From assembly GCA_015522145.1 (NCBI GenBank), contig WAMV01000011.1:1-20211 (forward strand): a stretch of DNA of 20,211 nucleotides. The letters are read 5' to 3'. Shown piece after piece: positions 3,258-6,212 of this stretch. The stretch is from Candidatus Aenigmatarchaeota archaeon (GTDB lineage: Archaea; Aenigmatarchaeota; Aenigmatarchaeia; CG10238-14; WAMV01). The translations under genes were made by a program, and so were the position numbers. Each line of letters begins with the position of its first letter. The first letter of the stretch is position 1. Below the pieces are notes generated by a model. It searched no databases and was not told the origin of the DNA. It saw nothing but the letters and a program-made list of their open reading frames with translations.

Positions 3258-3384
3258 GCCCCGGTAGCTCAACGGGTAGAGCGCCCGGCTTGTAATCTGT
3301 GATTTATGAAAGCACGACGGTCACCTGAAGTTAAGATGAAGACAAGTGACCGGGAGGTTGTGGGTTCAAATCCCACCCGGGGCT
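3258..3384 (+). tRNA. tRNA-Thr(UGU) with a 54-nt intron (3295-3348) at canonical position 37/38
   Basis: Acceptor GCCCCGG/CCGGGGC, D stem GCTC/GAGC, anticodon stem CCCGG(3284-3288)/CCGGG(3350-3354), anticodon TGT 3291-3293, T arm GTGGG-TTCAAAT-CCCAC, U73. Strict BHB: CTTG(3289-3292)/CAAG(3343-3346), bulges TAA and TGA, outer helix TCT/AGA. CCA not encoded. Confidence 0.95.
3295..3348 (+). ncRNA. Putative intron-encoded box C/D guide sRNA
   Basis: C-like ATGAAAG 3306-3312, 12-nt spacer CACGACGGTCAC, perfect D box CTGA 3325-3328, C-like ATGAAGA 3336-3342, D-like GTGA 3299-3302. The spacer is complementary to the conserved LSU rRNA sequence GACCGUCGUG. Confidence 0.7.
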
Positions 3385-3447
3385 TAAAATTTCTTTTTTA
3401 AACACATTAACCTCTATTTAAATTTTACGACGGTTGTTCAAGCTTAG

Positions 3448-3462
3448 GGAAAAGTTAATAAA
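3448..3462 (+). promoter_or_regulatory. BRE/TATA-like promoter of the 34-aa peptide gene
   Basis: GGAAAAG followed by TTAATAAA (3455-3462), ending 24 nt upstream of ATG 3486, consistent with a leaderless transcript. Confidence 0.5.
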
Positions 3463-3485
3463 CTAACAAAAATGAGTTTTTGAGT

Positions 3486-3590
3486 ATGATAGACAAAATA
3501 ACAAAAGACAAAAAAATGTTGGCAGCTGTTGCAGCAGTAGTAATTGTTGCTGTAGCAGCTGCATACTTCTTGGGCTACTTGCCTTTCTAG
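3486..3590 (+). CDS. Small single-TM membrane peptide, 34 aa (not in ORF track)
   Basis: Hand translation MIDKITKDKKMLAAVAAVVIVAVAAAYFLGYLPF*: basic N-terminus plus one hydrophobic helix, flanked by a TATA-like element and a downstream T-rich tract. Confidence 0.7.
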   Translation: MIDKITKDKKMLAAVAAVVIVAVAAAYFLGYLPF

Positions 3591-6084: not shown

Positions 6085-6196
6085 GGGGCCGTAGTCTAAC
6101 CAGGTAGGACATTCCGATGAGAACCTAAAGCCTGGCTCCAGCAAGCTGGAGCTTTGAGGAAACCAGGTGGTCGGGGTTCAAATCCCCGCGGCCCCA
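6085..6196 (+). tRNA. tRNA-Trp(CCA) with two introns: 6111-6129 (position 25/26) and 6142-6161 (position 37/38)
   Basis: Acceptor GGGGCCG/CGGCCCC, D stem GTCT/GGAC, anticodon stem CCTGG/CCAGG with spliced loop CTCCAGA, T arm CGGGG-TTCAAAT-CCCCG, A73. Intron 1 has a strict BHB (TAGG/CCTA, bulges ACA and AAG, flanking TTC/GAA and CCAGG/CCTGG). Intron 2 has a relaxed BHB. Confidence 0.92.
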
Positions 6197-6212
6197 CTAA
6201 CAATTTAAACTT

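What the first reader, a model, noticed from the sequence alone, without database searches (positions are those of the whole stretch)
3318..3352. The same guide could also methylate C39 of its own pre-tRNA (dual target)
Seen: CGGTCAC (3318-3324, directly before the CTGA box) pairs perfectly over 7 bp with GTGACCG (3346-3352) spanning the intron/3'-exon junction, and D+5 G3320 lands on C3350, tRNA position 39. The two guide bases that mismatch the rRNA (A3323, C3324) are the ones that extend this self-duplex. Established: euryarchaeal tRNA-Trp introns guide 2'-O-methylation at positions 34 and 39 of the precursor. Inference: one guide, two substrates; the duplex competes with the BHB, so it could also gate splicing. 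A 7-bp duplex is short.
Basis: partly seen in the sequence, partly recalled or inferred. Interest (0 to 1): 0.7.

Follow-up and report, generated by a model that had tools for sequence, protein, structure and literature searches.

The report
One intron guide, two methylation targets
The intron of this archaeal threonine tRNA gene carries a short guide that most likely marks one base of its own tRNA for methylation and, once cut out, a conserved base of the ribosome's large RNA, two jobs that related archaea encode at two separate places.

Summary
Of 35 distinct tRNA-Thr(UGU) introns from this Aenigmatarchaeota order, 29 carry a guide, D box, loop and C box. The guide pairs with the intron/exon-2 junction in the register that puts D+5 on nucleotide 39 (171 of 174 Watson-Crick pairs, with compensatory changes, also at the free intron-end bases).

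The rRNA target is 23S helix 69, C1920 (10 of 10 pairs). A3323 pairs there, and only C3324 mismatches. Fifteen relatives carry that rRNA guide outside tRNA genes, and 10 of them also carry the separate tRNA mini-guide. Here the two are merged, because both targets read UGACCG.

Likely order: methylate C39 before splicing, then the freed intron guides Cm1920. No methylation is shown, and gating of splicing is unproven. Fibrillarin, Nop5 and rRNA are missing from this partial assembly.

The parts
3258..3294 (+). tRNA-Thr(UGU) exon 1 (nucleotides 1-37; anticodon UGU at 3291-3293)
3295..3348 (+). 54-nt intron at canonical position 37/38, carrying the box C/D guide
   Evidence: kept in a strain about 4% diverged with changes only at 3331-3332
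3349..3384 (+). tRNA-Thr exon 2 (A38 = 3349, C39 = 3350; CCA not encoded)
3289..3298 (+). 5' strand of the bulge-helix-bulge: 3289-3292 pair with 3343-3346 (central helix), 3296-3298 pair with 3340-3342 (outer helix, which uses the C' box)
   Evidence: sequence; all pairs checked as standard
3299..3302 (+). D-like box GTGA, upstream of the C box with a 3-nt loop (permuted second K-loop; inferred)
   Evidence: sequence; no counterpart in the relatives' mini-introns; unchanged in the diverged strain
3306..3312 (+). Box C (ATGAAAG), at the same 12-nt spacing to the D' box as in the relatives' C1920 sRNAs
3313..3324 (+). 12-nt guide. 3314-3323 pairs 10 of 10 with 23S helix 69 (D+5 on C1920, E. coli numbering recalled); 3318-3324 pairs 7 of 7 with the own intron/exon-2 junction (D+5 on C39)
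3325..3328 (+). Box D' (CTGA)
   Evidence: GA invariant in 29 of 29 aligned introns
3329..3335 (+). K-loop loop, 7 nt (3-7 nt in relatives); the only part of the intron that varies among strains
3336..3342 (+). Box C' (ATGAAGA), ending 6 nt before exon 2
   Evidence: same distance in 28 of 29, 7 nt in one
3346..3352 (+). Self-target: last three intron bases plus nucleotides 38-41; predicted methylated base C39 = 3350

Best explanation
The intron is a box C/D methylation guide RNA formed by merging two RNAs that relatives keep apart: a mini-guide in the tRNA-Thr(UGU) intron aimed at tRNA nucleotide 39, and an sRNA aimed at 23S C1920. One guide can serve both because the splice junction (intron UG + A38 C39 C40 G41) and the 3' side of helix 69 both read UGACCG with the target C in the same register. 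Inferred steps: (1) L7Ae, Nop5 and fibrillarin bind the D'/C' K-loop of the precursor; the guide takes the junction strand out of the anticodon stem, probably within the same molecule, and C39 is 2'-O-methylated. This must precede splicing, since 3 of the 7 pairs are intronic. (2) The precursor refolds into anticodon stem plus bulge-helix-bulge and is spliced. (3) The excised intron has lost the exonic half of its self-target, so the full guide is free to pair 10 bp with helix 69 and direct Cm1920. Shown: sequence anatomy, covariation, and separate conservation of each function. Inferred: protein binding, both methylations, action in cis, order of events, and origin by recombination.
For: Self-target: 29 of 35 distinct order introns have the module; pairs D+2 to D+7 are Watson-Crick in 171 of 174 cells; D+5:39 is G-C 7, C-G 12, A-U 9, G·U 1; the two last intron bases pair in 57 of 58 cells with three and two pair types; 0 of 10,000 permutations reach this; slid registers give 12-55 of 174; one sequence per genus gives 93 of 96 against a mean of 64. 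Independent count: 99.4% paired, 51 double-sided changes, 0 of 500 shuffles; unconstrained consensus folding finds the same helix. Switches occur within genera g8 and g13 (with the genus labels). Other orders of the class: 21 of 27 introns at 6 of 6. 0 of 68 box-less introns from other archaea end in TG. In this genome five other intron modules put D+5 on nucleotide 34; 34 and 39 are the two sites guided by the tRNA-Trp intron (PMC7994747). rRNA target: 34 of 39 helix-69 matches in the order read TGACCGTCGT; it is the best site, 10 of 10, in 6 of 6 23S regions scanned, next best at most 7. The same C box-guide-D box occurs in 15 relatives outside tRNA genes. Cm1920 guided by sRNA Neq sR20 is reported as confirmed in Nanoarchaeum equitans (PMC5389701, 'data not shown'). 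Machinery: fibrillarin in 111 of 118 order genomes, 34 of 34 high-quality ones; L7Ae and splicing endonuclease in G000. One guide flanked by two C/D motifs gives wild-type specificity in vitro (PMC1635284).
Against: No methylation, expression or splicing data. The fused form is known only from this lineage: 1 of 371 class genomes, and the metagenome scan gave one hit that is not a tRNA, so no covariation tests the dual role itself. In this lineage the guide is fixed by the rRNA and 38-41 by the tRNA, so only two intron bases (3347-3348) testify to selection on the self-duplex, and they equal the state in G008 and G005. Seven pairs is below the nine used as the usual credibility cut-off (PMC4644070, PMC6009581). 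A single-motif half complex methylates non-specifically in vitro, which is a problem for the one-motif mini-guides of relatives. For tRNA-Trp, in vitro work favours action in trans (PMC2584109). G000 lacks fibrillarin and Nop5 in its 323-kb assembly (the two genes are adjacent in G008, G025 and G006), and none of three rRNA patterns matched it, so its own helix 69 was not seen. Kin are not independent, so the permutation figures overstate.
Confidence: 0.68

Rival explanations
1. The intron now works only as the C1920 rRNA guide. The self-duplex is a relic of the ancestral mini-guide, kept passively because the guide is held by the rRNA and 38-41 by the tRNA.
For: All self-pairing guide bases except D+1 are required for helix 69 anyway. 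The free C1920 sRNAs of G006 and G025 end in the same AC. Six order introns have lost the boxes, so the function is dispensable. The tRNA-Trp intron is dispensable in Haloferax (PMC4090602).
Against: The intron still ends in TG, an ending seen in 0 of 68 box-less introns of other archaea and 1 of 6 in the order. The C' box keeps its conserved 6-nt distance. A hairpin that out-competes the anticodon stem would be a cost if it were useless.
Confidence: 0.14
2. The guide:junction helix is a structural, L7Ae-bound K-loop hairpin that delays or times splicing; nucleotide 39 is not methylated.
For: Duplex and bulge-helix-bulge exclude each other and are nearly equal in energy (-38.0 against -37.9 kcal/mol for the bare helices). 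Intronic K-loop RNAs that suppress excision of their own intron are reported in mammals (bioRxiv 10.64898/2026.08.03.742641). Covariation proves a helix, not a methylation.
Against: A purely structural hairpin need not hold nucleotide 39 at D+5 in 29 of 29 introns. Sister modules with the opposite topology put D+5 on nucleotide 34, a known guided site in Leu(CAA), Met and Trp tRNAs. The duplex wins over the anticodon stem in only 12 of 29 arms.
Confidence: 0.1
3. Only the self-target is used; the 10-bp match to helix 69 is a captured piece that no longer guides rRNA.
For: The excised intron has no ordinary 3' D box; its second motif is permuted and degenerate. The organism's own rRNA was not seen, and another C1920 guide could lie in the unassembled part.
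Against: C box, 12-nt spacing and all ten rRNA-pairing bases are intact, as in 15 free copies, and unchanged in a strain about 4% diverged. No other copy is present in the assembled genome. Permuted sRNAs occur in N. equitans (PMC3491384).
Confidence: 0.06
4. Chance match.
For: Seven base pairs is short; 188 of 5000 shuffles give some box-registered 6-bp match to an exon nucleotide.
Against: 3 of 5000 shuffles land on 39, and covariation spans 16 genera.
Confidence: 0.02

Closest known systems
Box C/D guide in the pre-tRNA-Trp intron of Haloferax volcanii and Pyrococcus (sR50), guiding Cm34 and Um39/Cm39 (seen in PMC7994747, PMC2584109, PMC4090602, PMC11408192, PMC6313347; the primary papers were seen only as citations)
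   Same: Guide in a 37/38 tRNA intron; target is nucleotide 39 of the own precursor; pairing includes intron bases, so it must act before splicing; D+5 rule.
   Different: tRNA-Thr, not Trp. One guide instead of two. Self-duplex of 6-8 bp closed by the K-loop as a hairpin. Relatives use a 28-42-nt one-motif module. The same guide also fits an rRNA site.
Nanoarchaeum equitans sRNA Neq sR20, guide for 23S Cm1920 in helix 69 (PMC5389701)
   Same: Same predicted rRNA nucleotide, in a related DPANN lineage; box C/D architecture.
   Different: sR20's second guide serves 16S G1530; here the guide sits in a tRNA intron and its second substrate is the host pre-tRNA. Sequence homology with sR20 was not tested.
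N. equitans tRNA-Met intron sRNA and permuted sRNAs 24 and 26 (PMC3491384)
   Same: C/D-like RNA inside a DPANN tRNA intron; D box upstream of C box, with the normal order restored by circularisation.
   Different: The passages read give no self-target at 39 and no shared rRNA/pre-tRNA guide for that intron.
Composite and transposed sRNAs, and multi-tRNA guides, of Pyrobaculum (PMC6009581)
   Same: New sRNAs made by recombining guides of different families; one guide can have several tRNA targets.
   Different: There two guides are joined side by side; here two guides are superimposed on the same bases, one target being the host precursor and one an rRNA.
Mammalian intronic K-loop RNAs (bioRxiv 10.64898/2026.08.03.742641)
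   Same: Compact intronic K-loop RNAs proposed to act in cis on their own intron's removal.
   Different: Spliceosomal introns, mostly without antisense targets; here a covarying guide in D+5 register and endonuclease splicing.

Membership tests
Archaeal box C/D methylation guide sRNA | Box C (RUGAUGA) and box D/D' (CUGA) flanking a 10-12-nt guide | tested here: met
   ATGAAAG 3306-3312, 12-nt guide, CTGA 3325-3328; same layout in 15 relatives. The C box departs from consensus at two positions.
Archaeal box C/D methylation guide sRNA | Internal D'/C' K-loop | tested here: met
   CTGA, 7-nt loop, ATGAAGA; GA and ATGA invariant in 29 of 29. Sequence level only.
Archaeal box C/D methylation guide sRNA | Linear order C-D'-C'-D with a 3' terminal D box | tested here: not met
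   No D box follows C' inside the intron; the only candidate (GTGA 3299-3302) lies upstream of box C, a permuted order.
Archaeal box C/D methylation guide sRNA | At least 9 contiguous Watson-Crick pairs to the target, including D+5 (rRNA target) | tested here: met
   10 of 10 to helix 69 of relatives; the organism's own 23S was not found.
Archaeal box C/D methylation guide sRNA | At least 9 contiguous Watson-Crick pairs including D+5 (self-target) | tested here: not met
   7 pairs. D+5 itself is Watson-Crick, and the helix covaries.
Archaeal box C/D methylation guide sRNA | L7Ae, Nop5 and fibrillarin encoded | tested here: inconclusive
   L7Ae found; fibrillarin and Nop5 not in the partial assembly; fibrillarin in 111 of 118 order genomes, Nop5 in 4 of 4 relatives asked.
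Archaeal box C/D methylation guide sRNA | RNP assembly and 2'-O-methylation at the predicted base | not testable with these tools
   Needs biochemistry or RiboMeth-seq.
Archaeal box C/D methylation guide sRNA | Match to a curated Rfam sRNA family | tested here: not met
   Nothing near a gathering score; best snoRNA hit E = 4.2.
tRNA-Trp-type self-guiding intron | Guide inside a 37/38 intron with D+5 on nucleotide 39, pairing across the splice junction | tested here: met
tRNA-Trp-type self-guiding intron | Second guide aimed at nucleotide 34 | tested here: not met
   No box-registered pairing to 34 in this intron.
tRNA-Trp-type self-guiding intron | Host is tRNA-Trp(CCA) | tested here: not met
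   Host is tRNA-Thr(UGU).
Archaeal bulge-helix-bulge tRNA intron | 4-bp helix between two 3-nt bulges at the exon-intron borders; endonuclease encoded | tested here: met
   Pairs checked; endonuclease domain in G000.

The most novel reading that the evidence does not exclude
Splicing acts as a target switch for a single guide sequence. In the precursor the guide is locked onto its own junction by a K-loop-capped hairpin that both methylates C39 in cis and holds splicing back until that is done; excision destroys the self-target and releases the same guide, in a circular permuted intron, to methylate 23S C1920. The underlying class-wide mini-guides would be natural single-motif box C/D enzymes made site-specific by tethering the substrate, which in vitro work says should be non-specific.
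Probability: 0.35. Interest if true: 0.8.

Novelty: new variant of a known kind. Interest (0 to 1): 0.62.

Why it matters
Reviews from 2014 and 2024 present tRNA-Trp as the case of a tRNA intron that guides modification of its own tRNA, and what most archaeal tRNA introns are for is open. A covarying 28-42-nt module gives a concrete job to many introns in a DPANN class and offers the smallest natural box C/D substrates for settling two old questions: cis or trans action on pre-tRNA, and whether a single C/D motif can be site-specific. The window's intron adds a case of two guides superimposed on one sequence, coupling tRNA splicing to rRNA modification and showing one way a small genome can merge RNA genes.

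Tried and rejected
23S site near E. coli 2590 as target: rejected, 54 of 56 matches in the order have A opposite D+5. 16S helix 34 as target: rejected, 2 of 48 matches have the fitting sequence. Covariation of 3324 with 3346: absent. A second guide across the circular-intron junction: no convincing target in 10 rRNA regions; a site at the 16S 3' end gives 8-9 pairs with G·U in two of them, others are scattered, which is about chance level. Upstream GTGA box with exon 1 as guide: a 12-bp, G·U-rich pairing to the variable loop and T stem appeared; not followed up and probably compositional. Mature tRNA as target: weak (-5.7 kcal/mol against -12.3 for the junction and -18.0 for helix 69). Other fused introns: none among the class matches; the single metagenome hit is not a tRNA. 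ARAGORN without intron option finds nothing. The fibrillarin hit in G000 is the window's protein-L-isoaspartate methyltransferase. A TlyA-type stand-alone enzyme for C1920: only weak FtsJ-domain hits (best E 2e-9 in G000), not resolved. Expression: no RNA holder listed. The sigma-70 promoter scan does not apply to archaea. One primary paper on the tRNA-Trp guide was not held. No supplementary files were read.

Full report
OBSERVATION. The window is contig C11 of a 323-kb, 19-contig archaeal assembly. Positions 3258-3384 are a tRNA-Thr(UGU) gene with a 54-nt intron at 37/38, just downstream of top6A. The 7-bp pairing, the CTGA box and the D+5:C39 register are exactly as described. Shuffling the intron gives such a register on nucleotide 39 in 3 of 5000 trials. 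Records titled Aenigmatarchaeota carry the same tRNA-Thr introns as members of the window's order, which places the order in that DPANN phylum. Near-identical DNA is in hydrothermal-vent metagenome runs of the study that may be the source.

SELF-TARGET IN RELATIVES. I took 13 loci and hand-picked 27 tRNA-like rows from a 118-genome pattern search that did not specify any box or guide. Of these 40 loci, 39 parsed, giving 35 distinct introns. Six are short (18-25 nt) and lack boxes; one of them (L243) may not be a tRNA. The other 29 share one plan: guide, NNGA, loop of 3-7 nt, ATGA box, then 6 nt (28) or 7 nt (1) to exon 2. Pairs D+2 to D+7 are Watson-Crick in 171 of 174 cells. This uses the best NNGA candidate; taking the nearest instead changes two introns, leaving 25 at 6 of 6. 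D+5 faces nucleotide 39 as G-C 7, C-G 12, A-U 9, G·U 1, so the predicted product is Cm39, Gm39 or Um39 by lineage. The last two intron bases lie in the splice-site bulge and are otherwise free; they pair in 57 of 58 cells. Permutations (0 of 10,000), slid registers (12-55 of 174) and a one-per-genus subset (93 of 96, mean 64) agree, as do the pair-count tool (99.4%, 51 double-sided changes, 0 of 500 shuffles) and unconstrained consensus folding. Kin are not independent, but switches occur inside genera g8 and g13. D+1 is not informative: it faces an invariant G (21 U·G, 4 C-G, 4 mismatches).

WIDER RANGE AND CONTROLS. A class-wide pattern, which fixed the C-box distance, matched 63 of 371 genomes. 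All 31 matches outside the order were fetched. Four failed my anticodon-stem filter, two of which look like true modules by eye. Of 27 analysed, 21 pair 6 of 6, one 5, two 4, one 2, one 0, and one has no NNGA (141 of 156, permutation maximum 124; D box chosen by best pairing). There the D-C spacer often looks like a hairpin. In a named-genome scan that stopped at 120 rows, 79 distinct sequences parsed and 10 passed; none of the 10 is titled Desulfurococcales, Sulfolobales, Thermoprotei, Micrarchaeota, Nitrososphaeria or Asgard; one is titled Woesearchaeota, one Nanoarchaeota, and one lacks a C box. In G000, of 12 intron-bearing tRNA genes examined, five more have the module with D+5 on nucleotide 34: Leu(CAA), Lys(UUU), Arg(UCU), Glu(UUC), Met(CAU).

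THE rRNA TARGET. Two candidate sites failed. Searching genomes that hold the guide found an exact complement in the 23S gene of three of five: the 3' side of helix 69. In the order, 34 of 39 helix-69 matches read TGACCGTCGT, 2 differ at one base and 3 are of other types. Guide bases 3314-3323 pair 10 of 10, and D+5 falls on the base equivalent to E. coli C1920 (numbering recalled, indexed on the bacterial-type match). It is the best site in 6 of 6 23S regions; four 16S regions give at most 6 Watson-Crick pairs. PMC5389701 reports sRNA-guided Cm1920 in N. equitans. A C box-guide-D box pattern matched 17 of 118 genomes against 5 control hits: G000, one probable chance hit, and 15 relatives, 5 inside a 23S rRNA intron and 10 elsewhere, none inside a tRNA gene.

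THE MERGER. Ten relatives (G003, G006, G008, G009, G010, G014, G025, G031, G047, G108) have both RNAs at separate loci. In the window the 3' half of the intron matches the G008 tRNA-Thr intron and the part from box C through the D' box matches the G008 and G006 sRNAs; both share CGGTCA, a D box, a loop and a C' box. Recombination across that shared stretch is the simplest origin (inference). A strain from a second study, with 21 substitutions over 485 bases, keeps the whole intron and differs only in the K-loop loop. No other fused intron was found.

MECHANISM. Guide duplex and splice-ready fold exclude each other: G3346 belongs to the central helix, 3350-3352 to the anticodon stem, and the C' box to the outer helix. 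The bare helices are equal in energy, and the protein-free ensemble favours the duplex at 37-70 C, though only 12 of 29 relatives' arms do; these models ignore tertiary structure, modifications and proteins. Methylation must precede splicing. After excision only three self-pairs remain and the 10-bp rRNA duplex (-18.0 kcal/mol) is open. The short duplex and fixed linker suggest action in cis; for tRNA-Trp the in vitro data favour trans. PMC1635284 found single-motif complexes active but non-specific and one-guide, two-motif RNAs specific; the window's intron may have a second, permuted K-loop at 3299-3312, whereas the relatives' modules have one.

GAPS. No experiment or RNA data. Fibrillarin, Nop5 and the rRNA genes are not in this assembly; fibrillarin is in 34 of 34 high-quality order genomes. 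Selection on the self-duplex in this lineage rests on two intron bases.

LITERATURE. Ten searches listed no paper on self-guiding tRNA-Thr introns, on such modules in Aenigmatarchaeota, or on one guide shared by a host pre-tRNA and an rRNA; the library lacks most subscription papers. Seen as passages: PMC3491384, PMC7994747 (with section 6), PMC5389701, PMC7668247 (no Cm39, Um39 or Gm39 in the text), PMC11408192, PMC2584109, bioRxiv 10.64898/2026.08.03.742641 (69), PMC4090602, PMC4644070, PMC6313347, PMC6009581. Seen as abstract and Discussion: PMC1635284. The primary tRNA-Trp papers were seen only as citations. Supplements were not read; the sRNA tables of PMC4644070 could bear on how common C1920 guides are. 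Earlier notes of this scan describe the mini-guide module on other DNA (seen after my own counts) and a leader guide in this genome; none shown to me mentions the rRNA fusion.

VERDICT. Real feature; new variant of a known kind. Self-target very likely functional in the family, dual role about 0.68 here, gating unproven.

Noticed in passing
window 6085-6197: tRNA-Trp(CCA), missed or misnamed by ARAGORN, with an extra intron on the D-arm side and a short anticodon intron whose guide plus TTGA puts D+5 on C34 (read by eye). No C box follows in that intron; an ATGA box lies in the other intron.
   Followed up: partly
G000 C3:2983-3099, C5:22084-22221, C8:5621-5737, C10:17769-17885, C19:4778-4890: Intron mini-guides with D+5 on nucleotide 34 in tRNA-Leu(CAA), Lys(UUU), Arg(UCU), Glu(UUC) and Met(CAU).
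   Followed up: yes
G000 C7:45400-45600: tRNA-Ser(UGA): a leader guide pairs 12 bp with its own anticodon loop (D+5 on U34), and its intron is a two-guide sRNA matching 16S helix 44 (11 of 11 in one relative) and the anti-Shine-Dalgarno end (10 of 10 in another), like Neq sR13.
   Followed up: partly
G000 C7:1764-1907; L035, L319, L321: tRNA-Ser(GGA) introns of 53-58 nt with a full C-D'-C'-D layout; one guide matches a 16S site 9 of 9 in one relative. In G008, G002 and G012 this tRNA lies within about 1.3 kb of the C1920 sRNA.
   Followed up: partly
G000 C10:15513-15640: tRNA-Gly(UCC) intron has CTGA-loop-ATGA but no self-target and no clear rRNA target (best 7 Watson-Crick pairs).
   Followed up: partly
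G000 C7:79567-79671 and C13:77-180: Two nearly identical intron-containing tRNA-Ile(UAU) genes, a rare anticodon in archaea (rarity recalled).
   Followed up: no
L313, L315, L316, L317, L318: A 23S rRNA intron in family f4 holds a two-guide box C/D sRNA, one guide aimed at C1920 of the same rRNA.
   Followed up: partly
L287, L288 (G006); L013, L014, L021, L025: Position-39 mini-guides also in tRNA-Lys(CUU) and tRNA-Cys(GCA) of G006, and apparently in tRNA-Tyr(GUA) introns of family f5 (read by eye).
   Followed up: partly
L289 (G128): tRNA-Lys(UUU) module with two extra bases before the D box, which would move D+5 from U34 to C32 (read by eye; G018 looks the same).
   Followed up: no
window 3385-3490, run X4: A diverged strain has 1212 other bases in place of the 104 after the tRNA's 3' end, as expected of an element inserted at the tRNA.
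   Followed up: no
23S rRNA of the order: The peptidyl-transferase-region motif is of one type in 54 of 56 matches; G149, G161 and G023 hold rRNA pieces of other types, probably contaminants.
   Followed up: no
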